From Savitreella phatthalungensis (taxonomy: Eukaryota): a stretch of 64,000 bases of DNA. Shown here piece after piece: positions 1 to 60,518 of the stretch (position 1 is the stretch's first letter; the number at the start of each line of letters is the position of its first letter). The position numbers and the translations under genes are program-made. The notes under the pieces are model-generated. The model was not told where the DNA came from. It ran no database searches and saw only the letters and a program-made list of their open reading frames with translations. The DNA lies in NCBI GenBank assembly GCA_051599415.1, contig AP039698.1, positions 186,001 through 250,000 on the forward strand. The letters are read 5' to 3'.

Positions 1-647
1 ATGAACACGCTCGTCACGGACTTCCTTCCGGTCGATCGCATTCTCCTGGTCGAGGTAGGAGTCGTACCCCTGCTCAATACGTTGCAAAATCGGTCGCCAA
101 CATTCCTCATTGTTAATGAAGTCTCCGAAGCCAGGCGTGTCGACGATGGAGAGCTGAAGAGAGACGCCATCCTCCTGGACCAGTGCTGTGGTGGTTGTCG
201 TGCTGACGGTCTTGTCATTGCGCTGCTCTCCACCGAGCTGGTAATTTTTCGGTCCATATGTGTCACTGTTGAGGAGCGTGTTGACCATGGTAGACTTGCC
301 GAGTCCTGACTCGCCGACGAGCATGACGGTGAATTCGAAGCCCTTCCGGACAGACTTGCGGTGCCATTGTGCTGGCAGGTTGGCAAAGCCCACGAAGCCT
401 GTGAGTTTACGCTTCACAACTGTCGCGACTGGCGGTGCTGACGCGGTAGCCGGCTGAGCAGCTGCGGGTTTGGATGTCGTTGGTGCAGACATCGAAGGTG
501 TCTGTGGCGTGGAGGGGACGGGAGGTGGGGAGGCGGGTGTGAAGACTGGTTCTTCTGACTTGTTCGAGTTAGTGAGCTGTTCGACTTGTACAGACTCAAT
601 GAGACGAGGAAGAAGGGGAGGATGTCACTTACTTGGTCTGTATCCAT
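1..647 (-). CDS. CDC3: Septin, Cdc3/Spn1 type; 5' part only, runs off the left edge. Exons 647-633 and 558-1, intron 632-559
   Basis: Not in the ORF track. The minus-strand translation reads MDTDQ/SEEP...KRKLTGFVGFANLPAQWHRKSVRKGFEFTVMLVGESGLGKSTMVNTL...LSIVDTPGFGDFINNEECW, containing the septin G1 and G3 motifs. Intron GTAAGT..CACTAAC..AAG keeps the frame. Confidence 0.9.
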
Positions 648-14500: not shown

Positions 14501-16753
14501 TCACACTGCTACAGACCCACCTGTCCCGTTATTCTCTGCCGCTTCGACCACAGTCTTCTTGTAGTGCGCGATGGAGTGCGGATACTTGACGACCGTCCCA
14601 TCTTGGCACAGCCAGAGTCTGTCTGAGGCCTGCTCTAGGAAGGTGACGTCGTGTGAGACTAGGATGACTCCGCCGTTGAAGTTTTTGATGGCTGCGGTGA
14701 GAGCGTCCATGGCCTCGATGTCTAGATGGTTGGTAGGCTCGTCGAGGACGAGGATGTGTGGGTTCTGGAGCGACACGCAACTAAACGCCACTCGAGACTT
14801 CTGACCACCAGACAACGTCGACATCTTTGACAACCCAAGCGTCCCAACAATCCCAAACGCACCCAGGTGCCGTCGGTACTCCTCCTCCGATCGACCAGGG
14901 TAGTGCTTTGCCATAAACGCAACCGCCGACAGGTTCAGCTCGAGCGACTCGACGTGGTGCTGAGCGAAATAGGCGATTCGGAGGCGCGGGTGTCGCTGAA
15001 CGAAGCCTTTCGTAGGCTCGAGTTGCTCGATCAGGAGCTTCAGCATCGTCGTCTTGCCTGCACCGTTGGGGCCGATAACGCCGATCCGCGAGTCAAGCTG
15101 GACGTCGATGTCCACGTTCGATAAGATTTGCTTCTCTCCATACGCGAACGAGACGCCCGTCATCTGCAGCACAGGAGGCGAGATGTTCTCTGCTGGTGGG
15201 AACTTGAATGTCACCTCCTCGTCGTCCTCTGGCGGCTCAAGCACAGGTAATTTCTCAAGCTTCTTGATCCTAGACTGCGCTTCCGCTGCCCGAGCTGCAG
15301 AGTACCGGAACTTGTCGATGAACGCCTGCATGTGCTTCCTGTACGCGAGCTGCGATTCGTACTCGCGCAGCTGGTTCTTCTTCCGCTCAGACTTTGTCGC
15401 ATAGAACTGGGTAAAATCGCCGCGATAGTAATCCAGACGCTCGTTGTGCTGGTGGATGATGTCGGTCGCAATCTCGTCGAGGAAAGCTCGGTCGTGCGAC
15501 ACGACCAAGACGGTGTTGACGTACGACGCCAGATAGTTGGCGAGGAAGGCTACCGATGGCACGTCCAACATGTTCGAAGGCTCGTCCAGCAGGAGCAAGT
15601 CGGGCTGGCAGAACAAGGCCCTTGCAAGCGCAATTCGCATTCGCCATCCACCACTGAATGACTTCGTAGACTTCTTCTGTGCCTCTGTGTCGAATCCGAG
15701 ACCGTGGAGGATGCTAGCAGCACGGGCCTCCGCCTTATCGGCGTCAATGTCTGTCAGCTTTGTCTGGACATCGAGTAGATGCGCGTCGAGCTCCGAACGC
15801 TCTTTTTCTAGCGCCCATCTGCCTGGATCGTCCTCGGACATGTCTGTGAGTTCGCGAGCGATCTCGCTGTGCCTCGAATTGATGGTCGCCTGGTCCTTCA
15901 GCAGATACTTGCGCCACACATCAGCATCGAGCACGGCCTGTAGGGCTGAGGTATCATCTCCAGTGACTTCCTGCTCGACGTGCAGGATTGTGAGATGCGA
16001 AGGGACAGCGAGCTCGCGGCGCGACAGCGCACGCAACAATGTCGACTTGCCGATACCGTTCCGACCCACGAGGCCATACCGTCTGCCGTGCGCCAGCGAT
16101 AGAGAAGCATCCGTCAGGATACGCAAACCTGCGAAATTGATATCGATCGCATCGATGTGGATATCCTTTGATTTGCCAGTCCGCGATTCGAATGATAGTG
16201 GATTGACCTTCAGGTAGTTGTCGTCGTAGTTGACTGTCTCCTCAGTCTCGTTCAACAGGCGCGAAGCCTCATAGTCTGCCTTCATCTCCTTTTTCGCCAG
16301 CTTTGCAGCGATCTTGAGCTCCGCCTTTGCAAGCTTCTTCTTGTCGACCTGCGACGCCATCTTCCGGCGAGCTGTAGCCTCCAAGTCCGTCCCGCCGCCA
16401 AGTAGACCCATCGTGCTGGACATCTGGCGCTCGCTTTCCATGTTTACCGTGCGATTCAGCCTAGCGAGACCTCCTGCGTCACCGCCAGTAGCAGCGGCAA
16501 CCTCTGCTTTGCTAGCCAGCTGCTGCTCCAGCAAAGTGACAATCTCCTCAATGCGTGCCTCGTCAACATGGCATGAGATCAAGATCTTCCGCAGCGTGGC
16601 GAGAGCATTGTGAGCATTGGGCTCTGCGTTCTCAACGATGTACTCTGCATACCCCCGGCAGTATCGCTCGATGACGGAATCTGTACCTGCTGGAAACAAC
16701 CCCTTGAAATGGCCATTCAGCGAGTCCTTCCACGCGGGAGCCACAGAGGGCAT
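14501..16753 (-). CDS. GCN20: ABCF translational regulator Gcn20/ABCF3
   Basis: Two ABC cassettes without TM segments: GRNGIGKST..FSGGWRMR..LDEPSNMLD and GPNGAGKTT..LSGGQKSR..LDEPTNHLD. First ATG is at 16753. Confidence 0.93.
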   Translation of the reverse strand: MPSVAPAWKDSLNGHFKGLFPAGTDSVIERYCRGYAEYIVENAEPNAHNALATLRKILISCHVDEARIEEIVTLLEQQLASKAEVAAATGGDAGGLARLNRTVNMESERQMSSTMGLLGGGTDLEATARRKMASQVDKKKLAKAELKIAAKLAKKEMKADYEASRLLNETEETVNYDDNYLKVNPLSFESRTGKSKDIHIDAIDINFAGLRILTDASLSLAHGRRYGLVGRNGIGKSTLLRALSRRELAVPSHLTILHVEQEVTGDDTSALQAVLDADVWRKYLLKDQATINSRHSEIARELTDMSEDDPGRWALEKERSELDAHLLDVQTKLTDIDADKAEARAASILHGLGFDTEAQKKSTKSFSGGWRMRIALARALFCQPDLLLLDEPSNMLDVPSVAFLANYLASYVNTVLVVSHDRAFLDEIATDIIHQHNERLDYYRGDFTQFYATKSERKKNQLREYESQLAYRKHMQAFIDKFRYSAARAAEAQSRIKKLEKLPVLEPPEDDEEVTFKFPPAENISPPVLQMTGVSFAYGEKQILSNVDIDVQLDSRIGVIGPNGAGKTTMLKLLIEQLEPTKGFVQRHPRLRIAYFAQHHVESLELNLSAVAFMAKHYPGRSEEEYRRHLGAFGIVGTLGLSKMSTLSGGQKSRVAFSCVSLQNPHILVLDEPTNHLDIEAMDALTAAIKNFNGGVILVSHDVTFLEQASDRLWLCQDGTVVKYPHSIAHYKKTVVEAAENNGTGGSVAV

Positions 16754-17303
16754 GATAGACCTACAGCAAAGATGCACCCAGCGCTCGATCAGAGATGATT
16801 AGCAGTGATATCGAGCAGAAGATGAACTTCAAATGTCAGGCAGCCGTGAGGTTAACGTCTTCCTTGAGGTATACGTAGTGTGCATACATACTGCGTGCAT
16901 GTGGACAAATCGATTGAGAATGCTGACGTTTCACGTGCAAGAGTTTAACAACGGATATATGTGCACGATCTAACAGTGTATGCGGGTAGTATACAGTGCA
17001 GACCTCTTCCGAGGAGGCGCTATGAGGCTATCATATGCCTGGCTGGCCGCCTAAGTTGCCAGGGGTTCCGAAGACTTGTCTAGCGTCTTGAGCTCGTCGT
17101 TGCTCTCCAACCCTTTTGCAAGCTCTAGATGTGTGCGTAAGAGTCACCCATGTAGGACATGTATTGAAGGGCTTCCGTCCGCAAAGACGAGATACGCTCA
17201 GTCGTAGATAGATGAACTTCACAATCTCTGACTCTGATCCCGCGAGTAATCGAAACTTGTCTCCGATCCGTCGTGCAGGCAGATCATTACAGGCTCGATG
17301 ATC

Positions 17304-17589
17304 TCAGCCACCAGCTTGCTTTGTGACGGTCTGTTCCTGCAGAAGTGCTTCCTCAAGCCGGCGTTGCTGGTCAAATTCAATCTGTCGCTCTCGACGAGCA
17401 CGCTGCCTGGCCTCGTCAGAGAGAACACCCTGATGCATAGCCTGTTTGTGTTAGTCTTGCTCCAGCCGACTCTTTCATTGATGGCATTCGCACCTGTTTG
17501 TCTGCCTCCTGAACGTAGTGCACACCAAAGATAATTGCGGACGTTGTAAGCAAGGACACGCCTAGAGTTATTTTCGACGCACGACTCAT
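17304..17589 (-). CDS. PET117: Cytochrome c oxidase assembly factor Pet117; exons 17589-17494 and 17441-17304
   Basis: Spliced product MSRASKITLGVSLLTTSAIIFGVHYVQEADKQ/AMHQGVLSDEARQRARRERQIEFDQQRRLEEALLQEQTV.. (77 aa); intron GTGCGA..ACTAAC..CAG. Confidence 0.9.
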
Positions 17590-17802
17590 GCTTGCTTGAG
17601 TACTTGGGAGACCTCGACCCGGCGCTGAAGAAAAGTATCCCCGTGACGTATGTGATAGAAATTCAGTACAAACATTATCTCGTGCAATACGCGCCAAGCG
17701 CAACACACGTCTTTAGAGCTCATATATTGAGTTAGGTACTGAGCCTCGAGCTCGGCAGCGGGAAGTATATCTGTGCGACATGACTGAGGTCCTGTGAAGG
17801 CA

Positions 17803-18099
17803 ATGTCCAGCTTGAGCTTGGCTATTCTACTCACAGGCCTCTTCGTCTCCGGCTATTTACTAGGCCGCAGCAGCTTTGTCTTCAATCCTGCTGTGCTAGA
17901 GGCATCCTTTCCACGCTTCGAAGCCTTGTACGACGCTATCAAGTCTCTTGCTATCATTGCGGCTGCTTACGCTCTGCTTTGTTTGGTTGCTGCGCGTCTC
18001 GCGAGCCTTGTGCCGCGCTCAGTGCCGCTCAGCAAACGTCACTTGACAACAGATTCACTCTCGGCATGCGAGAACCTTCGACGTCGAGGGAGCTTCTGA
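17803..18099 (+). CDS. Putative 98-aa two-TM membrane microprotein upstream of and overlapping GPI1
   Basis: ATG 17803; hydrophobic stretches LSLAILLTGLFVSGYLL and IKSLAIIAAAYALLCLVAARL; C-terminus CENLRRRGSF; no internal ATG in any frame before the GPI1 ATG. Confidence 0.6.
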   Translation: MSSLSLAILLTGLFVSGYLLGRSSFVFNPAVLEASFPRFEALYDAIKSLAIIAAAYALLCLVAARLASLVPRSVPLSKRHLTTDSLSACENLRRRGSF

Positions 18100-20003
18100 G
18101 GGTCCGTCAGGGAGCTGACAGAACGCCTGACCGCAGGGTGACGGCTTGCAATGTCAAGGTCTTTTGGCCGGCAGATCTGCTTGACAGTCACGATGATGCC
18201 TTGATTCTCGGCTGGCACAACTCTCCCACTGACTTGTTCGTCATCGATCTGGTTTCCAACGTCTACCGTACTGGTTTAGAACAGCCGGTCGATCTTGACG
18301 GTCTGGTAACGAAGTATGCAAACAGCCAGGTATCACAGTTCTGCGGTAAGCAGCCGCTTTCGATCCTAGGCCAGGCGTTCTCGTCGACGACATCATTTGT
18401 CGCAGCTAGCGAGCACATGCTGTTTTGCCGCTTCACCAACAACAATATCTATCCCTCGTTCTGCTTGAAAGACTCCAAGGCAGCTGTACAGCTGATCATC
18501 TTCGAGCGCCCTGATCCTCACAGGATGCAGTACTTCTCTCTCGCGCCGATTCCTTTCGAGGTAGATGCGAACAGCGACAAGATAAACGGCGATGACTTTG
18601 CTGTTCTGCGCAGTGACAAGACTCACGGAGGGCCGTTGATAGGCCTGTCGAAATTACATCTGAACCAGATGAACTGCTCCCGTGAGGTGGCAATGGTTCT
18701 ACAGCGTAATTTACCTCAGCTCGGCTCCCGCCGCGCACGGAATCGTGCCCAGAGCTTCCACGATGTGGTACGAAAGTCAGCCTCTTCGACGATCGCTCGT
18801 TTCTCGGCAACAATATCCTATGCTTTTCACGACAGCGCCTGGCCAGCACTCAAGAACGGTGTCGCCTTCATCTTGAGTCTTGTCGTCAGCTTGCTGGGAT
18901 ATTGGTCTTCGCTGCTTCGAACGGAGCTACCTCTCATTGGTATCGCTCTCGTTGAGTTGTCAGTTCTCGCACGAGAGTTAGACTTTCGCCTTCAGCGCAT
19001 CCGTGGCTGGCCCGAGGACTATGCAACCCTTCGCAGGCGCAAAAAGGATTGGGCTTCCATCACAAATTACCACCCCGACTACATCAAGTTCTACAACGGA
19101 CTGTGGCTGATCGCCAACGACCTGATCATTGGTATCTACGTCGTGTCAATTTGCCATACGAACGAAGATATACTTGCCGATGCGCTTTACGGCTTCATCG
19201 AGAACTTCACGCTCGATACAGTCTCGCGAGCAATGTGGTGGTTGAAAGGATGGCCGGCGGGCCTGAAGCTCAACAACGAGCTTGCTACCTTTCTGGGCGA
19301 CTTGTTCTTGTGGCTTCTTGGCACTTGGCGTGGTGCGCTCACGGCAGCCTACCCGCACTTCCCGTGGATCATCCGCAGTGTCGGCATATGTGGTTTCCTC
19401 GGGGCATCGATCTCGGTCGCACTGATCTCCGACTGCCTGTCACTTCTCACGCTGCATCTGCACCTCTTCTACCACGCTTGTGCAAAGGTCTACGGCTGGC
19501 AAGTCTCGGCATTGGTATCTCTCTTTCATCTCTTCAGAGGCAAGAAGCGCAATGTACTTCGCCATCGTATCGACTCAAATGACTACGATCTCGATCAGTT
19601 GCTGCTCGGCACGGTCTTGTTCACCCTCCTGGTATTCCTCTTCCCGACGGTACTCGTCTTCTACGTCACCTTTGCGATCGCACGCATCGCTATCAGGTTT
19701 CTCCGGACTGCGCTGGACATGGTGCTCGCATTCCTAGTGCAGCTCCCTTTGTTCGGACTACTGCTACGCATCAAAGATGCCAAACGATTGCCAGGTGGCC
19801 TGCGCTTCTCTCGGCTCGACGTGCCGCCGCCAGAGAAGAGCTCGTTCAAAGGCAAAGCAGCGATGTCAATTGTCTACATCGAGCCCAAACCACTCCCTAT
19901 TGATGTCATGTTTGCAGCATTTGCAGCAAGGCAACGCAGCATCATGGGCTCGACCATCAATCTAGCCAGACTCTTCAGCGACACCGTCCAAGGCACACTC
20001 TAG
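18066..20003 (+). CDS. GPI1: GPI-GlcNAc transferase subunit Gpi1 (PIG-Q); start codon uncertain
   Basis: N-terminal VKVFWP..ILGWHNS; Gpi1 domain YIKFYNGLWLIANDLIIG, WPAGLKLNNELATFLGDLF, SLFHLFRGKKRNVLRHRIDS, QLLLGTVLFTLLVFLFPTV. Confidence 0.93.
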   Translation: MREPSTSRELLRVRQGADRTPDRRVTACNVKVFWPADLLDSHDDALILGWHNSPTDLFVIDLVSNVYRTGLEQPVDLDGLVTKYANSQVSQFCGKQPLSILGQAFSSTTSFVAASEHMLFCRFTNNNIYPSFCLKDSKAAVQLIIFERPDPHRMQYFSLAPIPFEVDANSDKINGDDFAVLRSDKTHGGPLIGLSKLHLNQMNCSREVAMVLQRNLPQLGSRRARNRAQSFHDVVRKSASSTIARFSATISYAFHDSAWPALKNGVAFILSLVVSLLGYWSSLLRTELPLIGIALVELSVLARELDFRLQRIRGWPEDYATLRRRKKDWASITNYHPDYIKFYNGLWLIANDLIIGIYVVSICHTNEDILADALYGFIENFTLDTVSRAMWWLKGWPAGLKLNNELATFLGDLFLWLLGTWRGALTAAYPHFPWIIRSVGICGFLGASISVALISDCLSLLTLHLHLFYHACAKVYGWQVSALVSLFHLFRGKKRNVLRHRIDSNDYDLDQLLLGTVLFTLLVFLFPTVLVFYVTFAIARIAIRFLRTALDMVLAFLVQLPLFGLLLRIKDAKRLPGGLRFSRLDVPPPEKSSFKGKAAMSIVYIEPKPLPIDVMFAAFAARQRSIMGSTINLARLFSDTVQGTL

Positions 20004-20328: not shown

Positions 20329-22901
20329 ATGGTAAGCTATTACCATATGATTTTGATCTGGTACTGATAGCAGGATGATAACATCGCCAATGGCTTGTCA
20401 AATCGCCTGTACGAGAAGCGGAAGGCAGCGGCGTATGACCTAGAGAAGTAGGAAGATCCTTATCACAACCAAGCTCAGTCAGCTGACCATACAGGATCGT
20501 TCGCGAAGGTCTCATTGCTGGTGACAGTTTCAAGATACGCAAAATCATCGAGACATTATGTGACGAGTTCATTGGATCGACTGGCAGTAAAAACGCTCGA
20601 TCTAGCGCTGGAGGTCTTATTGGACTGGCTGCAACATCAATCGCGCTCGGCAGGGACGTCGATAGGTACCTTGAGCTTGTCATCCCTTCAGTGCTGTCCT
20701 GCTTCCAAGACCGTGATTCTCGGATACGGTATTACGCCACCGAATCACTTTACAATATTGCCAAAGTTGCAAAGGGCGAGGTCTTACTCTTCTTCAACGA
20801 GGTCTTCGATGCTCTATGCAGACTCGCAGCAGACGCGGATGTCTCCGTGAAGAACGGCGCGGAGCTGCTCGATCGGCTGATCAAGGACATCGTATCAGAA
20901 AAGGCGACAGCCTACGTTTCCACATTACAAGTCGAGCGGGACGATGAGGATAACCTCGAGGAGCGCGATTCGTCCGGTCGACATATCGTCCATCCTCAAC
21001 CGAAACATGCCCGGACCACGGCGTTCTCATTACCGAAGTTTATTCCTTTGTTGTCGGAACGAATCTACGTGATCAATCCATACGCTCGGACCTTCCTCGT
21101 ATCGTGGATCTCGGTTCTCAACAACATCCCGGATCTAGATCTCATCACGTATTTGCCAGCTTTCTTTGACGGCATCTTCAAATTTCTCAACGACTCGCAT
21201 CAAGACGTCCGCGTCGCCACATCGAGATTGCTGGAAGAATTTCTCGACGAGATTAAGCGTGTCGCCCGCACGAATCCCGCACACTGGCAACAGGCGATAG
21301 TCCCGGCTATTGAGGCGACAGAGCCGAAAGATCAGTCTCGGAGCTCGACGCCTTCTCCGGAGTACAGCTTCGCAGACAGCCAATCACTAGTGCGAGATGA
21401 AGGGGCGACCAAAGACGGGGAAGAATGGATGGGAGATGTCGCGCCGGGTCAGGGAACCGCCATTGACTTCCATTCCCTCGTTGGCATTCTTCTCGATGAG
21501 CTCAATTCGCTTGACGAGACGATTCAACAGACGTCGCTTAAGTGGCTCGTCGAGTTCTTCGACATCTGCCCGCGAACTCTAGTACAATCGACGCCGGACC
21601 TGCTGCGTGCCGTTTTGCCGCTAATCGCGCATGAGTCACCTTCACTGCGCAAGTCAGCGGCAGAACTCAACAGCCGGCTACTGGCTCTTGTCCGGCAGGT
21701 CATTCACAACGAAGGCGACGCTGACAGCACCGTCACGGACAATACGTCTCCTTCGCTACTTGACTTTGGGCAGACTGTGGGTGCGGCGACTGTACAGTTG
21801 GTGGACGATCACGAAGAGACACGAGTGACTGCTTTGAGCTGGCTCATGGAGTTACACCGTTCCGCACCAAAGAAAATGTTGGCCCTCGATGACGGCACCT
21901 TCCCAGCGCTGCTGAAGACCCTGAGCGACCCAAGCGAACGCGTCGTCATGCAAGATCTACAGCTGCTCGCTTTGATCTCGAGCAATTCAGAGGACGATTA
22001 CTTTAATGTGCTCATCATTAATCTGCTCACGTTGTTCTCATCGGATCGCAAGCTGCTGGAGCAGCGTGGCAGTCTCATCATTCGTCAACTGGCCTACAAT
22101 TTGAATGCTGAGCGCATCTATCGCGCCATCGCCGACAATCTTGAAAAGGAGGAAGACCTAGATTTCGCTAGCACGATGGTCCAGACTCTGAACAACAACC
22201 TGATGACCGCTCCAGAGCTGCTCGATCTCCGCAGGAGATTGCGCAACCTCGAGATGAAGGACGGTCAAGCTTTCTTCACTTCGATCTATCGTTGCTGGTG
22301 TCACAACGCCGTGGCCACTGTCTCTCTATGTCTGCTGGCCCAAGCGTACGAACAAGCTAGCAGCTTGCTCCATGTCTTTGCAGACCTAGAAATCACGGTC
22401 CCTTTGCTCGTCCAGATCGACAAGCTCGTGCAGCTACTCGAATCGCCAGTCTTCACGTATTTGCGTCTGCAGCTACTCGAGCCAGAGAGGCACCCATACC
22501 TGGTCAAGTGCCTCTACGGCCTGCTCATGATCCTGCCGCAGACTTCTGCTTTCACCACTCTTCGCAACAGACTCAATAGTGTTGGCTATTTCGGCATGGC
22601 TGGTCAATCGACGAATTCTGCGGGCAATAGGAGCTCGACTGCAGCACTGACGGGCGTATCAGCAGCTCGCGTCAGTGCAAACGCAGGCGGAAAGAAGGAA
22701 GATGTGAACTGGCAAGATCTGTTGCAGAAGTTCCGTCAAGTCCAAATGCGGCATGAGAAGGCGCGGCATGACCCTGCAAATTCTGCTACTCAGGCGAACG
22801 GTGCACTGGCCCTCGCTCAAGCGTCGTCGACAACAGCCATGACCACGAGTACAGGATCAAAGCGGAGATCGCAGATGTCGACCATCAATCGGCGGCGATA
22901 G
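20329..22901 (+). CDS. VAC14: PIKfyve/Fab1 complex scaffold Vac14; exons 20329-20331, 20374-20447, 20495-22901
   Basis: Spliced N-terminus M/DDNIANGLSNRLYEKRKAAAYDLEK/IVRE..GGLIGLAATSIALG; RYYATESLYNIAKV; C-terminal LVQIDKLVQLLESPVFTYLRLQLLEP. Coding exon 1 is the ATG alone. Confidence 0.93.
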
Positions 22902-32125: not shown

Positions 32126-32581
32126 ATGGCTGCATTGAGCACGCCTGCATCAACAGGCGGCAGCGACGAAGGTCTCGTCGACCATGCCATTTTTGATCAG
32201 TTGCTAGAGATGGATGACGATGGTGATCGTGAGTTCAGCAGAAGTATTGTATGGAACTTCTTCGAGCAGGCGGAGACGACATTTACTCAGATCGAGACCG
32301 CACTAGAAAAAAAGGAGTTGGCAGAACTGTCGAGCCTTGGACACTTCCTGAAAGGCTCATCAGCCGCCTTGGGACTTACGCGCGTCAAGGAGTCGTGTGA
32401 GAAGATTCAGCATTTCGGCGCTCGTAAGCGAGCAGATGGCTCTGGACAAATTGATGATGAGGAGGCCTTGAGCAAAATTGCTACCACCCTGGCCAAGTGT
32501 AAAGAGGACTATCGCGAGGCAGAGATCTACCTCAAGGACTTCTACGGTGGCGAGGATGGCGCCGTCAAGGAAGACGACTGA
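32126..32581 (+). CDS. YPD1: Histidine phosphotransfer protein Ypd1/Mpr1
   Basis: FDQLLEMDDD..FSRSIVWNFFEQAETTF..LSSLGHFLKGSSAALG (HPt phospho-His). Confidence 0.95.
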   Translation: MAALSTPASTGGSDEGLVDHAIFDQLLEMDDDGDREFSRSIVWNFFEQAETTFTQIETALEKKELAELSSLGHFLKGSSAALGLTRVKESCEKIQHFGARKRADGSGQIDDEEALSKIATTLAKCKEDYREAEIYLKDFYGGEDGAVKEDD

Positions 32582-32588
32582 TGACTTT

Positions 32589-32612
32589 GGGGGGGGGGGG
32601 GGGGGGGGGGGG
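32589..32612 (+). repeat. G24 homopolymer
   Basis: Uninterrupted G run starting 8 nt after the YPD1 stop. Confidence 0.9.
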
Positions 32613-33084
32613 AAATAAAGAAGCATCCGCCAGGCTATATGTCCATCCGTTCCTACACCCTTTTCCGCATTCAGCATGCAACAAATTGTCCCTCTAGAGG
32701 GCCCTCACGTCCTTCATTTTCTATCATCATTGACGTAGGCTAGGCACAGCGAAACGAGATTGCTTCAATCACAAGCCTTATTGTGTGTATAAGACTCTAT
32801 CTTTGGGCGATGGCCAGACAATTACTTCTTAGGTTAGTCTCGGATAGTAGTGGCTTATGGAAGAGAGAGACCTGGAGTCATATCCTCCTGTTGCATTGCT
32901 GCCCCTTGAAAGTCCTTCAGCACGGTGCATCTTAGAGCCCACTTTGACAAATTCACGTGTGCGTACTGTTGCAATCAATTTATGGCCAGGGTTGACAAAG
33001 GCACAAGGACGTCACTCACTCCACATCAGTGCAAAGAGTGGTGGGAAGTGTACTCTAAAGAGGCTACTGACCTTTTCTCTCGCA

Positions 33085-50427: not shown

Positions 50428-52329
50428 TTAGTCAGCGTAATAGGTGACATCTGTGCGCTTCGCAATTTGAACACGCGTGTTGTCCTGATCGAACACGACG
50501 TAGACGTTCTTCAGGAACATGATGCCCAAGATTCCGAAATTGTTGTTCCAGGCCTGAATGCCACTGTAGCAGTAGCCATTACCCTCGGGATACCATGCGA
50601 GGTCACGCACTGGCACGGCGTACTTCGTGCCGCCGAGGGAGAAGTAGACGTTGCGGTTACCGGCATATGCGTTCGACGTGGCATTGCAGAAGATCTGATA
50701 GTGCTGGCTGCCAGAACTTGGGTCTGTGCTTACGCGAGCGCCGGGCAGATTTTGATGGATGTTGCGAGCCATGGTCGGATCCAGCATTATCAGTGTTGTT
50801 CCCGAATCAATGATGACGGGTTGGGAAGGCGTCCAGCTTCCTGCCGTGCCGACCGAAACAGAGTCCATATTGACTTGCCAGTACTGCGGATAGCGCAAAG
50901 GAACATTGGTCAGAGGCCCGGAAACGACGCTCGAGTCATACCCTCCGAATGTCCACTGACCACCGCCGCCAGAGTTTTGCCATTGGTTGTCCTTGACGAA
51001 TTGCAAGCCGAAGACGCCCTTTGGAATGATCTTTTGAGCGACCATATTGTCGACTGGAGTGGCAGCGTTCTGGGTGCTCAAACTTCGGAAACCTAAGCCT
51101 AGAATACCGTCCATTGGGTTGGACATCAGATTCGGGCTCACCACATGTGCCACATCCAGGCTTTGTGCTTGAATCGGGGCGCCCGCGACGTTTACTGTGT
51201 CGTAGCCGACGTAGCCGGATGTCTGAGAGCCGTCGCCGTAGAGCAGAGAGAATGTAGTAGTCGTGTTCTTGAAGGTCGTCGATTTTGACGGATTGTACAG
51301 GTCGTGGCCGGAATTGATGCACGAGGGGCAGTCCGTGTTGAACATCCATAGATCAGACGAGCCAGTGTCGAGCAACAGACTGAGCTGATTGTTGTTGCTG
51401 CCAATGGTGACCTCCGAGAGGAACTCGGAATCGAGCTGAATGTTATCCGCTTGCAGGATCAGTGGTACGGAGCTGGTCGTTGTTGCTGCGCTGCTTGATG
51501 TTCTGCTGCTGCTCAGAAGAGTCGATGATTGGCCTTGGGAGGATGTCGTCGTGCCCAGCACAAGTGAGCTCGTTGTTGGCCTGACCGAAGACAGGGTGCT
51601 GAGAACATTCGGAGTGTTGAGCGAGGAGGATGAGCTTGGAAGAGTTGATGTTGTCGCTGGCCTACTGCTTGTAGTGGTGGTTGTCGTAGCTGGCCTACTG
51701 CTTGTAGTGGTGGTTGTCGTAGACGAGCTCGTCAACTTCAAAATCGAGCTCGAGCTGCTTTTAGTAGAAGATGTGGTCTTGACGGACGTCGAAGAGCTGG
51801 TCGTTGTCGTCGCTGGCTTCACTTGACAGATGGAGAGCATGGGAAAATATTTGCAATATGCCGGAACTGATGCGGCCACGCCTCCGGTTCCCAGGCCGCC
51901 GCCGGTCGTACCACCTGCGGCTGCGGGCTGTGTGTTGAACGAGCGACCACCTGCAGTCGTAGTCGTAGCTGGATTGGTATTGAAAACTCGACCTCGCTTT
52001 TCGAGCTGATGATCAGCCGGCGGAGTTGCAACGACAAGATATTTGGCATTGACAGCATTGATGGCATTGGCCACATTTGGCGTATAATGTGGATTCGCCT
52101 TGATCTTTACTTTCAGTACTTGCGGTACAATTCCGAGGTCGACGATCTCGCGCGGAGTGTCTGCGGCAGCGACCACAGGCGTAGCAGCAGCCGTCTTATT
52201 GCCATTGCTAGCGCTGACAATTGCTGCGGTGCCATCGCCAGCGACTGCACCCACTGCGGCTGGTAGCGCAGCAGCTTCGCTCACAGACCAGGCGAGAGCT
52301 ATGGCTGCGAGGTTGACAATCTGGACCAT
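50428..52329 (-). CDS. Secreted pepsin-like (A1) aspartic protease with a Ser/Thr-rich insert
   Basis: Signal peptide; LEKR Kex2 site; catalytic LLDTGSSDLW and IIDSGTT; YGDGS flap; GILGIMFLKNVYVVFD. Confidence 0.9.
   Translation of the reverse strand: MVQIVNLAAIALAWSVSEAAALPAAVGAVAGDGTAAIVSASNGNKTAAATPVVAAADTPREIVDLGIVPQVLKVKIKANPHYTPNVANAINAVNAKYLVVATPPADHQLEKRGRVFNTNPATTTTAGGRSFNTQPAAAGGTTGGGLGTGGVAASVPAYCKYFPMLSICQVKPATTTTSSSTSVKTTSSTKSSSSSILKLTSSSTTTTTTSSRPATTTTTTSSRPATTSTLPSSSSSLNTPNVLSTLSSVRPTTSSLVLGTTTSSQGQSSTLLSSSRTSSSAATTTSSVPLILQADNIQLDSEFLSEVTIGSNNNQLSLLLDTGSSDLWMFNTDCPSCINSGHDLYNPSKSTTFKNTTTTFSLLYGDGSQTSGYVGYDTVNVAGAPIQAQSLDVAHVVSPNLMSNPMDGILGLGFRSLSTQNAATPVDNMVAQKIIPKGVFGLQFVKDNQWQNSGGGGQWTFGGYDSSVVSGPLTNVPLRYPQYWQVNMDSVSVGTAGSWTPSQPVIIDSGTTLIMLDPTMARNIHQNLPGARVSTDPSSGSQHYQIFCNATSNAYAGNRNVYFSLGGTKYAVPVRDLAWYPEGNGYCYSGIQAWNNNFGILGIMFLKNVYVVFDQDNTRVQIAKRTDVTYYAD
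51656..51721. repeat. Perfect 33-bp tandem duplication inside the protease Ser/Thr linker
   Basis: gctggcctactgcttgtagtggtggttgtcgta x2, encoding TTTTTTSSRPA. Confidence 0.9.
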
Positions 52330-53435: not shown

Positions 53436-56400
53436 TTAGTCATACTTGTAATACCAGGGCTCTTGAACGACCTCGTTGTTGTTGTACCGATGACCTCGCA
53501 CGCCGTCCCCGCGAAATTGCGCTGGGTAGCGCTGACCTGCCGGGATTTCGCTTTCATCGGCCCTTACATACGAAGGTTCCATGTCAATTGAGAAGTTGTC
53601 CCCGACAATAAATTTACCCGTCTGAATCTCGGTGTCCGTAATAGTGGAGCGGTGCACGCGCGCGTAGCCAATGCGTTTCAGACCTCTGAGAAAGATATAC
53701 TCGCACCAGCGGTCCCAGTCTGAGGGCTCAATGTCATGCATACCAGTGTCGTCGGTCAGATGACGTTGCGGATATTGACCTGGAACTGATACGACGTAGC
53801 CAAGGAAGATGAATGGATTCTTGCTCTCGCGCATGATACGTCCAAGCTCGAGAGATTGCAGTCGACGGTCCTCCGGATCTTCCTCTTGTCCATTATGTGA
53901 CACGATGACATCGACATGTCGTCCGTACACATCCAGAGTCGCGTGAATCGCTGGTGCCAACTCGCCGACTGGCGAAGGCAGTAAATGGTGCGTCGACTGG
54001 ATGATCGGGAACTTGGAGAGCAGCGCGCAGCCCCACGTGTGCTTGTTCGGTCCCGGTCCGAAGTCAACGTACATACCGATCTCTTCGGCGATCTGCTGGG
54101 TCAAGTCCCGCTGTCCCATGATCAAACGCTGTGTATCGGTCTCGAGCAACCCTATGACGTCGAGTTCGAGCTCTTCGATAATCTGACGCATTCGTGTCTC
54201 ACTTGACCACATGTCATTATCGAGGCCGAAGTGGACAGTCCAAATGCCCGCAGTCAGAAGTCTCTCTTCTGCATGATATGGCTGATAGTCGAATGTCGGG
54301 AATCGGACATAGCAAATGACAAAGACCAGAATGGACAGTGCCGCGCTCACGAGTCGCAGACCACCGAAAAGGGCACGATGTAAAGCTGCGACCGCATGAC
54401 GATCAGGCTGATAAGAAGCCCGAGAACCAAAAAGCCCGACAGCTAGGCACGCGGTGGATACTGCCAGCACAATATCAGTGCGCTCACGAAGCAATGGCCC
54501 TCCCGGCACAAATGCGTATGCGACCACCCAGACATGCATGAGGGCGAGTATTACAGCAATGAGGTAGCCTAGGCCAAACGCAATGCCAGGTCGACCGCGA
54601 GAAGCATCGCGTAAGAGCTGAACGGTGGCGCCGCAGATACTAGACGCAAATGCGAGGCCTCCGATGTAGCCTGGATAGCCGGGGAACACGTAAATGAGCG
54701 TCAATCCAGATGTTACACCAGCGAGCCAAGCAGCGCGAGAGACGCGTGGATGCTGCAAAACACCACACGCAGTGCCGGCCAGCATAGCGATGATCAAAAG
54801 CCCTCCATGCGGAACCACGAGGGGGCCACGAATTGGGAAGCCGTCCCATATCCATAAAATGATGGTGCTCGAATCACTCAGCATGGAGTGCAGAAGAAAG
54901 AAACTGCCTCCGAGACCGAAAGCCAGGGCGCTTGAGTTGATCGAGCTCTGTGACGTCGGGGCTTCTCGCTTTGTCATGCTGGCTCTGTCAGACCGATGCA
55001 ATACAGCCACGGTGAGGGCACCAAGAGCTAGTCCGGTATGGTTCCAGCCGCCATTCAGGCTGTGCATGGTCGGCCAAAGAGGATTCAGGGTGTAGTAGGA
55101 GAGCTTGGCAATACTGTGGAGTGCCAGCCCGAAAAGAAACGAGACAATGTCGATGTCAGTGGCGAAAGTGCGACGAGAGCTGCTTGTGAGCTGCAAAGCC
55201 CAGTACAAAGTTTGGGCAATACATCCGGCAGACACGGTCAGTAGCCTGGCCGTGGGGTCGTGCACTTTGAATGCGACGACGCCGAGCAGTGTCAGGAGTC
55301 GAAGCAGTGTCATCTGAGATCGCAGAGCATTGCGAATTGGGTTGCTCAAAAGCAGCAGAGGCGCAACTAGAACGAAGTAGGACGCTTCGAAGCCGGAGAT
55401 TCCCATGTGCCAGAGCGGGAAATACCATATGAGGAGCGGCAGCGCGCTATATGTCGTCCATGAAAGATAGGAGAAGAGAATGCGTGCACAGAGGTCAAAG
55501 ATGAAGAACGTGTCCACCTGTGGTGACACATGCGGCAACGACCGTTGCTTAGCGCTATTTGCAGTATCAGTAGCCGATCACGAAGCGGTCTCGAGCCACT
55601 GGAGGGGATTGTCACGCACTTTTGCTTCTCCTCGACAGCCGATGATGATCTCAGCGACCTACGTGACAGCGTGAGTCTATGGCAACAATGACGAACTCGT
55701 GTCAAGGTACCTTTTGAAGCCAGAAGCCAAGCGGATGTCGACGTCAAAACGTTCGAATTCAGTCGCCGCGCTTGCGTCGAAGGCCACGTCGTAGATGATG
55801 AGCGACCATTCGAAGAATGCGTAAATTGTGTATGCTTCGATCGTCAGTATATACAGCGTTCCGGGGGTGAGCCACGATGAGCATACCTCCTGCCTTTTTG
55901 TGAACTTTATGCTGGATGAAGAAGTAAATGAGGGGCACGATCGAGCCGAAGAAGAGTATGCTAAACAATCGACGGCGACGATAGCCAGGAGATCCGACGG
56001 GCGTGATTTTGAGACAGCCCAGCTGCCACGGAATTGTCAGCACTAGGTAAGTGATCATGAATATATCGTGCCAGTCGTGATCGTCCGTCGACGTGACGTA
56101 CACCCAACCGCCACAGGATAGTGTGCGAATCAGGCCGGCGACGAGGACGAGGGCTGGCACGCGCCCAGGCTGCTCCCGGCTGATCAAGTACCAAAGCGCG
56201 CATATTGCAAAACGGGGCCCGCTGGTAATAGCAATGAAGACTTGAAATATGCTTCGTTCGGGATACCAATCGCCAATAGTGGCAGATACTGACGGAAACC
56301 ACTCTTGGGGATAGCCGTAATGCTCATTCTGGACAATCTGATCAGTCAGCAAGCTTGATAGACGTCATGCGTAGCCGCTGAACTGACTTTGGTATAATGC

Positions 56401-59069: not shown

Positions 59070-60518
59070 TAGTCTGGTGTAAATGTTTGAGACACTTGCC
59101 GCCCTCGGTAAGCCATCGTGTGAGACCTGCTATGTCGTCTCAGGTCCGGGTCCAGGTCACTTGATTTGTGGCTCCTGTGCTCTGAAGGCATCCTATGCGG
59201 CACAGGACTTCTTACAAGTTATCCCAGCTTGCAGGACGGCATGTGGAAGATTCGACTCTTAGTCTCTCAATATAAACATCAATCATTTGCGAAAGAAGTA
59301 AAGCGCATTGATGTTCGCACAGTCCGCACCAGAGATTCAGCAACGACATCGTGCTCTGACCAGCCAGCAGGGATATGAATACCACGGACGACTCGATCAA
59401 CCACGTCGAGACCGCCCGCGTTGTTACAGATGTCTATAATGCATGTGCGCCGGATTCAGGCCTGTATTGTACTAAACGTGTACGAAGCATGCTTTTGTGT
59501 GCAGCCTTGCAGGACATCTTATCTGTGGGTTCCCTGCCCGATATGGGAATCTGCTTCGTGTGATTACAGCAAGCGACTAAATGGTCAGACAAGTACGCGT
59601 GCGAATCGCAGTCTGTCAAGCAAAGTGCTTTATGCAGAATTTCGAGACTTTTGGTCATTAAGAGGTGATTTGGTGTCCAGCTTCACGAGCGCTGTCCAAA
59701 AAATGATTTGTCCTGCTACAAAGACCATGAGCTCTAGGACTAGGTTTGGGTGATCTGCTGCATTTACAAATATCGGATTGGCAATGGAAAGGTAAATATC
59801 TACCATTCTGGCTCCTTCGAGCAGTTCATGCGAGATTCACAATGCATCGATTGTCTCATCACAAGTATACTACATACTCACAAGTCTCGCAGATTGCGTC
59901 CCGATTATGGATTTATTGATCGCACAATCTGAATTTGTAGCCTCCTATAGATTCCACACATCTAGCAATCACTCCTGTTTGACGTGTCTTCTTGATCAAG
60001 TTCGCAGTCAAAAACATCCTCACAACAGGGAATCGACATGCACACTCGCAAACACTGTCCAGCTCCTCGTCTTCACGGATCTAGTCGCCGGCGCCGTCCT
60101 TCCTCAAATGCTTTATAATCACTGTCACTTTTGCATCCACTCTATGATATTTTGACAATCCTACAATATATGTACCAGACACAGCACTCTCCTGAGTCAT
60201 TACAATTCACCAACGCATGTCTCTTGTCGTCTGTCGGAACTGTTTGTGATGTGTATGTTTCCTGCCGAGTCACAGCATCAGTCCTCTCTTATCGTCTGCT
60301 CCGGATTCGCAGCGCTTTCTTCATCATTTTTTTAAATTTTGTGAAAGTCTTCCGCAACATAGACGCGTGGCAGCCAGGAGTCGTCGGTGCCGGGGAGCAA
60401 TGCCATGGCACGAAAACCACTGGAGAGCTTGTGAAGCTAGACCTATTGCTTTACTAGGAAATGCAAACTTCATACTGCAGACCGGGCATGCGTCACAACA
60501 GCTCAAGTCGTCTGTGCT

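What the first reader, a model, noticed from the sequence alone, without database searches (positions are those of the whole stretch)
17803..18180. Candidate bicistronic GPI1 locus: an AUG-free two-TM microprotein ORF precedes and overlaps GPI1
Seen: a 98-codon ORF (ATG 17803, TGA 18099) has two hydrophobic helices and ends in CENLRRRGSF, a PKA-type RRxS site. It starts only 214 bp from the divergent PET117 start, which leaves no obvious separate promoter for GPI1. There is no ATG in any frame for about 260 nt, where roughly 4 would be expected at 1/64. The next ATG (18066) is the only in-frame ATG that can yield the conserved Gpi1 N-terminal VFWP motif, and it overlaps the last 34 nt of the small ORF. 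Known: AUG depletion of a first cistron is the hallmark of leaky-scanning bicistronic mRNAs; the GPI-GlcNAc transferase uses small two-TM subunits (Eri1/PIG-Y, Gpi19/PIG-P), and human PIGY lies on a bicistronic mRNA. Inference: this is a co-translated, possibly PKA-regulated, uncharacterised partner of Gpi1. I have an unverified recollection of similar ...RRRGSF-ending hypothetical proteins beside GPI1 in filamentous ascomycetes.
Basis: partly seen in the sequence, partly recalled or inferred. Interest (0 to 1): 0.78.

Follow-up and report, generated by a model that had tools for sequence, protein, structure and literature searches.

The report
Conserved microprotein ORF overlapping GPI1 start
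A 98-codon reading frame that begins upstream of the GPI1 gene of this yeast-like fungus and runs 34 bases into it is a real, conserved gene for a small two-helix membrane protein, probably made from the same messenger RNA as Gpi1 and possibly an unrecognised helper of the first enzyme of GPI-anchor synthesis.

Summary
ORF 17803..18099 (98 aa) has two hydrophobic helices and ends in RRRGSF. It starts 214 bp from the divergent PET117 start and overlaps the only usable GPI1 ATG (18066) by 34 nt, after a 263-nt ATG-free tract.

It is not a chance ORF. An exhaustive HMMER search found a 94-aa homologue (E 3.5e-10), and a follow-up found two more. All four share the start, a GYLLGRSS motif and an identical 13-residue tail, LSACENLRRRGSF.

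One homologue shares its contig length with a Gpi1 orthologue. Its tail and that orthologue's head can be encoded by one DNA only in the same 34-nt overlap (0 of 2000 shuffles). All three forced base differences are silent in the small frame and amino-acid-changing in GPI1.

A Dothideomycete 'pig-Q' gene model carries a homologous two-helix module fused to Gpi1.

The ATG depletion alone is weak (P 0.055 to 0.23). No transcript data could be obtained, and binding to Gpi1 is untested.

Best reading: a conserved overlapping upstream cistron for a membrane microprotein linked to Gpi1. This is a new variant of the bicistronic microprotein kind.

The parts
17304..17589 (-). PET117: exon 1 at 17494..17589, 52-nt intron at 17442..17493, exon 2 at 17304..17441. 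This is the divergent neighbour.
   Evidence: Pfam PF15786 matches both exons, on complementary halves of the profile. ORFs listed.
17590..17802 (.). 213-bp shared intergenic region between the PET117 ATG and the small-ORF ATG. It holds a TATA-like TATATT at 17713..17718. Presumed bidirectional promoter (inference).
   Evidence: Sequence read. No promoter test was possible.
17780..17797 (+). Mini-uORF of 5 codons plus stop. It ends 5 nt before the small-ORF ATG and matters only if the transcription start lies upstream of 17780.
   Evidence: ATG positions, sequence, start context.
17803..18099 (+). Conserved small ORF of 98 codons. It has two hydrophobic helices, the invariant motifs GYLLGRSS and RLA.L, and the invariant tail LSACENLRRRGSF.
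17806..18065 (+). ATG-free tract, in all three + frames, between the two start codons.
18058..18099 (+). Codons for the invariant 13-residue tail plus the stop. The tail holds a PKA-type R-R-x-S-hydrophobic site that also fits the mode III 14-3-3 motif R-x-x-S-x-COOH.
   Evidence: Alignment A2. Motif definitions read in PMC4760375.
18066..18099 (+). 34-nt dual-coding overlap: the small-ORF tail in one frame and the Gpi1 head MREPSTSRELL in the other.
18066..20003 (+). GPI1 (PIG-Q family), 645 aa.
   Evidence: Pfam PF05024, E 3.1e-98. Orthologues.

Best explanation
The 5' end of the GPI1 transcription unit carries a second, conserved cistron. It is an overlapping upstream ORF encoding a membrane microprotein of about 95 residues: two helices followed by a tail ending in the invariant LSACENLRRRGSF-COOH.

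Proposed mechanism, with what is shown and what is inferred:
1. Shown: the ORF is under purifying selection as a protein, and its position relative to the GPI1 start codon is conserved.
2. Inferred: its stop lies 34 nt inside the GPI1 coding sequence, so its mRNA must extend into GPI1. The simplest case is one mRNA for both, starting in the 213-bp PET117/GPI1 intergenic region.
3. Inferred: scanning 40S subunits meet AUG 17803 in a non-modal context (G at -3, A at -1, U at +4). Some initiate there and make the microprotein. The rest scan on through 263 nt without any AUG and start Gpi1 at 18066. Because the ORFs overlap, a ribosome that translates the small ORF cannot go on to make Gpi1, so the first AUG sets the ratio of the two products.
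4. Inferred, less certain: the microprotein acts with Gpi1 in the ER GPI-GlcNAc transferase. Its tail would be a phospho-regulated retention or interaction signal of the PKA / Arg-based / mode III 14-3-3 type.
For: Homologues:
- HMMER against 1.84 billion representative proteins gave exactly one hit: 94 aa, E 3.5e-10, aligned end to end.
- A second search added P0013, 66% identical to that hit. Cluster look-up added P0012.
- Alignment A2 has 36 invariant columns, including M1, S2, GYLLGRSS and all of the last 13 residues. Gaps are whole codons only. Identity to the window is 41-46%, while Gpi1 of the nearest relative is 66% identical.

Synteny:
- P0013 and the Gpi1 orthologue P0002 both come from Logan, each with a longest contig of 10250.
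- The P0013 tail and the P0002 head can be encoded by one DNA in the same 34-nt offset: 12 solutions, against 0 of 2000 shuffled heads.
- The 3 base differences from the window that are forced (18075, 18078, 18084) all fall on small-ORF third positions. They are silent there and change P>S, S>T and S>T in Gpi1.

Coding signal:
- The codon log-likelihood is +0.085 per codon in frame, against -0.23 to -0.79 in the five other frames.

Link to Gpi1:
- The first 92 residues of the Kalmusia 'pig-Q' model P0008 align to A2 with hhalign score 33.5. This compares with a maximum of 15.8 in 200 shuffles and 15.6 in 53 natural membrane segments. They precede the Gpi1 N-terminal motif in one polypeptide.
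- The ESM Atlas nearest clusters are 92-aa and 109-aa Ascomycota proteins auto-named pig-Q, at scores 0.86 and 0.83. This is a lead only.

One mRNA and leaky scanning:
- There are 0 ATGs over 263 nt, against 1-7 in the first 263 nt of 18 long ORFs.
- None of the 4 homologues has an internal Met.
- The AUG 17803 context matches none of the modal bases of 19 first ATGs in the window: A at -3 in 9, C at -1 in 11, G at +4 in 9.
- Only 214 bp separate it from the PET117 start.

Tail:
- It fits R-x-x-pS-x-COOH and resembles the basic-cluster/PKA site of the TASK channel trafficking control region (passages of PMC4760375).
- Cross-talk between the GPI-GlcNAc transferase and cAMP-PKA is documented in yeasts (passages of PMC11294708).
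Against: - There are no transcript, ribosome or peptide data of any kind. A GPI1 transcription start inside the small ORF is not excluded.
- The AUG depletion is weak as statistics. P(0) is 0.055 by composition and 0.23 once the peptide is given, and the gap ranks 15th of 1108 in the window.
- Met-free 97-residue stretches make up 26% (257 of 995) of windows in real proteins here.
- The codon score is at the low end for real genes, whose 5th percentile is 0.06. It is reached by 3 of 57 off-frame ORFs and by 5 of 42 intergenic ORFs of similar size, this ORF being one of those 5.
- The family is small: 4 sequences from about 3 lineages, all automatic ORF calls on unnamed assemblies.
- The Taphrina-type Gpi1 heads (P0003-P0005) cannot carry the same overlap, with 0 solutions. 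No homologue from them was found, so the arrangement is not universal even among the nearest relatives.
- No similarity to any Pfam family, and so none to any known GPI-GlcNAc transferase subunit.
- Net charges flanking the helices differ between homologues, so the topology, and with it a cytosolic tail, is not settled.
- The fused Kalmusia model may be a gene-prediction artefact. Its DNA could not be seen.
Confidence: 0.5

Rival explanations
1. It is a cis-acting regulatory uORF of the conserved-peptide type. Translating the overlapping uORF diverts ribosomes from the GPI1 AUG. The invariant C-terminal peptide acts inside the exit tunnel to stall termination at 18097. That would tune, or by queuing even position, scanning subunits on the GPI1 AUG, which lies 31 nt upstream of the stop. 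On this reading the released peptide has no function of its own.
For: The strongest conservation is in the last 13 residues and the stop position, as expected for nascent-peptide stalling uORFs. The uORF overlaps the main start, which gives the most repressive geometry. The spacing between the GPI1 AUG and the uORF stop is identical in the second species. The RNA around the two signals folds slightly better than shuffles: z = -2.3, with 5 of 200 shuffles as good.
Against: The N-terminal 26 residues and both hydrophobic helices are also conserved, which a tunnel-acting peptide does not need. At 98 codons it is long for a regulatory uORF. A homologous module exists as part of a Gpi1 polypeptide model, which argues for a function as protein.
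Confidence: 0.17
2. It is an independent small gene with its own short transcript, and GPI1 is transcribed from a start inside or just after it. The overlap is only tight packing, and the protein's function need not concern GPI synthesis.
For: The genome is compact: 214 bp to PET117 and short introns. The ORF has its own conserved start and stop. A TATTTA lies inside it near 17855. The ATG-free tract would equally suit a GPI1 5' UTR.
Against: Its stop lies 34 nt inside the GPI1 coding sequence, so its 3' UTR and poly(A) site would have to sit within GPI1. The same overlap is kept in a relative whose Gpi1 is only 66% identical. The module is attached to Gpi1 in a Dothideomycete model.
Confidence: 0.15
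3. It is the first coding exon, or an N-terminal extension, of Gpi1 itself. It would be joined to the VFWP-containing body by splicing or another recoding event, as in the fused Kalmusia model.
For: P0008 carries the homologous module in one polypeptide with Gpi1. Of 42 GT..AG pairs that would join the two frames without a stop, one (17928..18136, 209 nt) has G at donor position 5, a CTGAC branch site 19 nt (and a second 7 nt) from the acceptor, and a YAG acceptor.
Against: That candidate intron would remove helix 2 and the invariant tail, which are conserved in their own frame with silent-only changes. It is four times the length of the one verified intron nearby, which is 52 nt. The stop codon position is conserved in all homologues. 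No -1 slippery heptamer lies in the ORF. No GT is conserved within the tail codons.
Confidence: 0.1
4. It is a chance ORF in an A-poor, pyrimidine-rich promoter or 5' UTR region.
For: The A-poor composition (49 A of 297) lowers both stop and ATG frequency. The window holds 99 ATG-to-stop ORFs of 70-140 codons outside the reading frames of the 19 long ORFs taken as genes, and 7 of them score higher on codon usage.
Against: Full-length homologues share the same start, the same stop and invariant motifs at a divergence where Gpi1 is 66% identical. Differences in the overlap are silent only.
Confidence: 0.02

Closest known systems
Human PYURF(PreY)-PIGY bicistronic mRNA
   Same: A GPI-GlcNAc transferase component is co-encoded with a second conserved protein on one mRNA. 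PYURF-PIGY is listed among characterised bicistronic transcripts (passage of PMC13303939).
   Different: In that case the small transferase subunit is the downstream cistron and the partner ORF is unrelated to GPI synthesis (recalled from Murakami et al. 2005; not held). Here the small ORF is upstream, overlaps the main ORF out of frame, and the main ORF is Gpi1/PIG-Q. There is no sequence similarity.
Eri1 (yeast) / PIG-Y (mammals), the smallest GPI-GlcNAc transferase subunit
   Same: A small protein with two hydrophobic helices in a GPI-GlcNAc transferase context. Eri1 connects the enzyme to Ras/cAMP-PKA signalling (passages of PMC11294708; listing of bioRxiv 10.1101/2024.02.28.582498).
   Different: No Pfam family matched any of the 4 members. 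It is longer (94-98 aa against about 70, a recalled figure), with a 30-residue tail and an invariant C-terminus that I do not recall in Eri1 or PIG-Y. Membership is not supported.
uORF-encoded membrane microproteins such as SLC35A4-MP/STREMI and MIURF-MIEF1
   Same: A conserved microprotein of about 100 aa with transmembrane helix or helices, translated from the 5' leader of an mRNA whose main ORF encodes a membrane or organelle protein (abstract and passage of PMC13303939; abstract of PMC12396333).
   Different: Those are vertebrate, non-overlapping and mitochondrial. This one is fungal, overlaps the main start codon, and has a homologue fused to the main protein in another lineage.
Conserved-peptide regulatory uORFs (fungal arginine attenuator peptide, plant CPuORFs)
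   Same: An upstream ORF with a peptide-level conserved C-terminus next to its stop codon. The comparison rests on recalled knowledge.
   Different: It is much longer, hydrophobic, and conserved at the N-terminus as well.
[quoted passage not shown]
   Same: The extreme C-terminus has a tribasic cluster, a PKA-type serine at the penultimate position and the mode III 14-3-3 motif R-x-x-pS-x-COOH. The tail -R-R-R-G-S-F-COOH fits the motif as printed in PMC4760375.
   Different: This is a motif resemblance only. The proteins are unrelated, and phosphorylation, COPI binding and 14-3-3 binding are untested here.
N-terminal extension of the 'pig-Q' gene model of Kalmusia sp. IMI 367209 (P0008)
   Same: A homologous two-helix module (F.AGY and ER[IL]A motifs) directly upstream of the Gpi1 N-terminal motif.
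   Different: There it is in one predicted polypeptide with Gpi1 and lacks the RRRGSF tail. The related Lojkania model P0007 starts after it.

Membership tests
Gpi1 / PIG-Q (main ORF 18066..20003) | Match to the Gpi1 domain profile | tested here: met
   PF05024, E 3.1e-98, 328.8 bits against a cut-off of 22.2. It is 56-66% identical to five orthologues.
Eri1 / PIG-Y | Sequence match to the family profile | tested here: not met
   No Pfam-A family matched at E up to 1 or up to 10 for all 4 members. That Pfam-A holds a PIG-Y model is recalled, and HMMER filters drop most weak hits.
Eri1 / PIG-Y | Small protein with two transmembrane helices | tested here: met
   Two hydrophobic segments in all 4 homologues. 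AF2 helices at 3-26 and 40-69. Length is 94-98 aa, longer than the recalled figure of about 70.
Eri1 / PIG-Y | Physical and functional association with the GPI-GlcNAc transferase | not testable with these tools
   Needs co-purification and an enzyme assay.
Gpi19/PIG-P, Gpi15/PIG-H, DPM2 (other small transferase subunits) | Sequence match to the family profile | tested here: not met
   No Pfam family matched any member. That these families have Pfam models is recalled.
Leaky-scanning bicistronic mRNA | Both ORFs are conserved coding sequences | tested here: met
Leaky-scanning bicistronic mRNA | One transcript spans both ORFs | not testable with these tools
   No RNA run was listed. This is inferred only, from the stop codon lying inside GPI1 and the 214-bp distance to PET117.
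Leaky-scanning bicistronic mRNA | No AUG in any frame between the first and second start | tested here: met
   0 ATGs in 17806..18065. The statistics are weak: P(0) is 0.055 by composition and 0.23 given the peptide. Conservation in relatives is untestable without their DNA, apart from 0 internal Met in all 4 peptides.
Leaky-scanning bicistronic mRNA | Weak context at the first AUG | tested here: inconclusive
   AUG 17803 has G at -3, A at -1 and T at +4. Modal bases in 19 first ATGs of the window are A (9), C (11) and G (9). The sample is small and the true starts are unverified. G at -3 is still a purine.
Conserved-peptide regulatory uORF | Peptide-level conservation concentrated at the C-terminus next to the stop | tested here: met
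   The last 13 residues are invariant, and differences in the overlap are silent only. The N-terminus is conserved as well.
Conserved-peptide regulatory uORF | Ribosome stalling that controls main-ORF translation | not testable with these tools
   Needs toeprinting, ribosome profiling or reporter assays.
Mode III 14-3-3 / PKA / basic-cluster C-terminal control motif | R-x-x-S/T-x-COOH with R-R-x-S-hydrophobic | tested here: met
   The tail RRRGSF-COOH is invariant in 4 of 4 homologues. Motif as printed in PMC4760375.
Mode III 14-3-3 / PKA / basic-cluster C-terminal control motif | Phosphorylation and binding of 14-3-3 or COPI; cytosolic exposure | not testable with these tools
   Charge distribution gives no consistent topology.

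The most novel reading that the evidence does not exclude
The two-helix module is an ancient, so far undescribed component of the ascomycete GPI-GlcNAc transferase, older than the Taphrinomycotina/Pezizomycotina split. It is always encoded in cis with Gpi1, either as an overlapping upstream cistron (here) or fused to its N-terminus (Dothideomycete model). [quoted passage not shown] It would then be the functional counterpart of Eri1/PIG-Y in fungi where no such subunit is recognised.
Probability: 0.2. Interest if true: 0.8.

Novelty: new variant of a known kind. Interest (0 to 1): 0.6.

Why it matters
GPI anchoring is essential for fungal cell walls, and its first enzyme is a multi-subunit complex whose small subunits are poorly understood and evolve fast.

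A conserved membrane microprotein tied to the GPI1 start codon would add a candidate subunit or regulator. It overlaps that codon in one subphylum and appears fused to Gpi1 in another. It would also give a rare fungal example of a dual-coding, overlapping bicistronic locus with a fixed product ratio, and a concrete, mutable site (the penultimate Ser of the tail) for testing the long-discussed link between GPI synthesis and PKA signalling.

There is a practical point too. Gene callers omit, split or fuse this ORF inconsistently: the window's 98-aa product is absent from the 15-billion-protein collection, and P0007 and P0008 are modelled differently.

Tried and rejected
- Own genome: none is held.
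- DNA of relatives: two scans of metagenome contigs (Gpi1 alignment A1, then P0006) and one scan of genome contigs (A1) confirmed no relative. Codon-level dN/dS and out-of-frame AUG counts in relatives therefore could not be done. Only the overlap could be reasoned out from two protein sequences.
- Word-indexed protein search with the window peptide found nothing at near lengths. The hit came only from the exhaustive HMMER search.
- Complex prediction of Gpi1 with the small protein: no verdict (score 0.00, partner fold uncertain, alignments not used). It is reported here only, as neither support nor evidence against.
- ESM Atlas with residues 1-92 of P0008: no usable hit.
- AF2 of the small protein gave a mean pLDDT of 62.9. 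That is too low for a meaningful fold search, so none was run.
- PDB sequence search with Gpi1: 0 hits, so no solved transferase complex was available to compare small subunits.
- Rfam on 17000..18600: 0 matches at E up to 1.
- Programmed -1 frameshift: no X XXY YYZ heptamer lies in the ORF frame.
- Splicing the small ORF to GPI1: 42 frame-joining GT..AG pairs, of which only 17928..18136 has acceptable signals, and it would delete the conserved half.
- An earlier version of the joint-coding script had a bug and returned 0 solutions even for the window itself. It was corrected.
- Positive-inside rule for topology: inconsistent between homologues.
- Literature: no paper holds both 'PIG-Q' and 'uORF'. 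The searches 'GPI1 / upstream open reading frame / bicistronic' and 'polycistronic / Ascomycota / microprotein / leaky scanning' listed nothing on this locus. Murakami et al. 2005 (PMC1266422) is not held.
- Earlier findings of this scan: four look-ups gave nothing relevant.
Full report
**What is in the sequence.**

The window comes from an ascomycete whose Gpi1 is closest, among named proteins, to that of Taphrina deformans. Overall identity is 56-66% to five orthologues.

On the + strand, ORF 17803..18099 encodes 98 residues ending in CENLRRRGSF. ORF 18066..20003 encodes a 645-aa Gpi1 (Pfam PF05024, E 3.1e-98).

On the minus strand, PET117 starts at 17589. Its two exons, 17494..17589 and 17304..17441, match the two halves of PF15786 and are separated by a 52-nt intron. 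The small ORF therefore starts 214 bp from the PET117 start.

ATG 18066 is the only in-frame ATG that includes the conserved VFWP motif. The two ORFs overlap by 34 nt in different frames, and no ATG lies between 17803 and 18066 on the + strand.

**Is it more than chance?**

Taken alone, the ATG-free tract is weak evidence.
- It ranks 15th of 1108 gaps in the window.
- The stretch is A-poor, and composition-matched shuffles give no ATG 5.5% of the time.
- Once the peptide is fixed, synonymous resampling gives no out-of-frame ATG 23% of the time.
- Met-free 97-residue stretches make up 26% of windows in real proteins here.
- On the other side, none of 18 long ORFs in the window lacks ATGs in its first 263 nt.

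Codon usage is mildly coding-like. The score is +0.085 per codon in frame, and all five other frames are negative. That is near the 5th percentile of real-gene windows and 8th of 99 non-genic ORFs of similar size.

None of this would settle the matter. Conservation does.

**Homologues.**

The word-indexed search found nothing. HMMER over 1.84 billion representative proteins found one hit, P0011: 94 aa, E 3.5e-10, aligned from residue 1 to the last.

Its 90% cluster holds P0012. A search with P0011 found P0013, 66% identical.

In the four-sequence alignment:
- the initiator Met-Ser, the motif GYLLGRSS after the first helix, an RLA.L motif after the second helix, and all of the last 13 residues (LSACENLRRRGSF) are invariant;
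- the two gaps are whole codons;
- identity to the window is 41-46%.

Both hydrophobic segments are present in all four. None matches any Pfam family.

**Synteny and selection.**

I could not obtain DNA from relatives. However, P0013 and the Gpi1 orthologue P0002 both come from Logan, each with a longest contig of 10250.

P0002 starts MRESTTTRELLI. I asked whether one DNA could encode the P0013 tail and the P0002 head in the window's 34-nt offset. It can, with 12 solutions, whereas 0 of 2000 shuffled heads and none of the Taphrina-type heads can. The overlap is therefore conserved.

The three base differences from the window that are forced (18075, 18078, 18084) all fall on third positions of the small frame. 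They are silent there and change Gpi1 residues (P>S, S>T, S>T).

In the dual-coding stretch, then, it is the small frame that is held constant. An unconstrained region would not keep an open 94-98 codon frame, the same start and the same stop at a divergence where Gpi1 is 66% identical.

**Link to Gpi1 beyond this clade.**

Among distant Gpi1 hits, the Kalmusia 'pig-Q' model P0008 (771 aa) has about 80 extra N-terminal residues with two hydrophobic segments before the Gpi1 N-terminal motif. The Lojkania model P0007 starts after them.

Residues 1-92 of P0008 align with the small-ORF profile at hhalign score 33.5 (probability 82%). This compares with a maximum of 15.8 in 200 shuffles, 12.3 for the reversed sequence and a maximum of 15.6 in 53 natural membrane segments (full-length comparison).

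The ESM Atlas nearest clusters to the window peptide are 92-aa and 109-aa Ascomycota proteins auto-named pig-Q, at scores 0.86 and 0.83. These are below the tool's 0.9 mark, so they are a lead only.

Together these suggest the module is old in Ascomycota and tied to the 5' end of GPI1, sometimes modelled as fused. The fusion itself could be an annotation artefact that I could not check.

**Mechanism.**

The small ORF's stop lies inside GPI1, so any mRNA encoding it must run into GPI1. The only obvious promoter space is the 213-bp region shared with PET117, which holds a TATA-like element at 17713..17718.

The most economical model is one mRNA with leaky scanning:
- AUG 17803 has G at -3, A at -1 and U at +4. 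This matches none of the modal bases of 19 first ATGs in the window.
- It is followed by 263 nt without an AUG, up to the Gpi1 start.
- Overlap forbids reinitiation, so the two products are made in a ratio fixed at the first AUG.

A 5-codon mini-uORF (17780..17797) ends 5 nt before 17803. If it is transcribed, it could also send reinitiating ribosomes past 17803 to 18066.

As for function, conservation of both helices and of the N-terminal motif, together with the fused homologue, favours a working membrane protein that acts with Gpi1.

The invariant tail fits the PKA consensus and the mode III 14-3-3 motif R-x-x-pS-x-COOH next to a basic cluster, as in the TASK channel trafficking control region (passages of PMC4760375). 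Cross-talk between GPI-GlcNAc transferase subunits and cAMP-PKA is documented in yeasts (passages of PMC11294708). These last steps are inference.

**Rivals.**

- Regulatory conserved-peptide uORF. This is credible because the tail and stop are the most conserved part, and the local RNA folds slightly better than shuffles (z = -2.3). It does not explain the conserved helices or the fused homologue.
- Independent gene with a GPI1 start site inside it. This would need polyadenylation within GPI1.
- Splicing to Gpi1. Only one of 42 frame-joining GT..AG pairs (17928..18136) has usable signals. It would delete the conserved half and is four times longer than the verified local intron. No frameshift heptamer exists.
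- Chance ORF. Excluded by conservation.

**Comparison with known systems and novelty.**

It works like the known bicistronic microprotein loci. PYURF-PIGY, MIURF-MIEF1 and SLC35A4-MP/STREMI are named as such in PMC13303939. It is reminiscent of Eri1/PIG-Y in size class and context.

It fails the only membership test available for any known transferase subunit, with no profile match. It also differs in being an out-of-frame overlapping upstream cistron of GPI1 itself.

My searches found no paper on it. The window's peptide is not in the 15-billion-protein collection.

I rate it a new variant of a known kind, with moderate to high interest. The rating is limited by the small family, the lack of any expression data and the untested partnership with Gpi1.

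Noticed in passing
window 17780..17797 (+): A 5-codon mini-uORF (ATG..TGA) ends 5 nt before the small-ORF ATG. If the transcript starts upstream of it, reinitiating ribosomes would probably skip 17803 and reach the Gpi1 AUG. That would be a second route to making both products.
   Followed up: partly
window 18040..18160 (+): The RNA around the Gpi1 AUG and the small-ORF stop folds at -46.7 kcal/mol, z = -2.3 against dinucleotide shuffles, with 5 of 200 as good. No covariation test was possible.
   Followed up: partly
window 17928..18136 (+): This is the only candidate intron (209 nt: GTACGA donor, CTGAC branch, CAG acceptor) that would join helix 1 of the small ORF in frame to Gpi1 just before VFWP. 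It could be an alternative isoform. No RNA was available to check.
   Followed up: partly
P0007 versus P0008: Two Pleosporales Gpi1 gene models disagree at the 5' end. One includes the two-helix module and the other starts after it. This suggests inconsistent annotation of the module in public genomes.
   Followed up: partly
window 51440..51826 (+): A 128-codon ORF overlaps the long minus-strand ORF 50428..52329 and has the highest codon-usage score of all non-genic ORFs of 70-140 codons (0.187 per codon).
   Followed up: no
window 1..309 (+), 32360..32677 (-), 55759..56058 (-), 60170..60457 (+): These are intergenic ORFs of 95-105 codons with coding-like codon scores of 0.11-0.14. They are probably exons of genes that I did not model.
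   Followed up: no
window 14501..16753 (-) and 21429..22901 (+): The flanking genes are a two-cassette soluble ABC ATPase (ABC_tran plus ABC_tran_Xtn) and the C-terminal part of Vac14 (Fig4-binding domain).
   Followed up: partly
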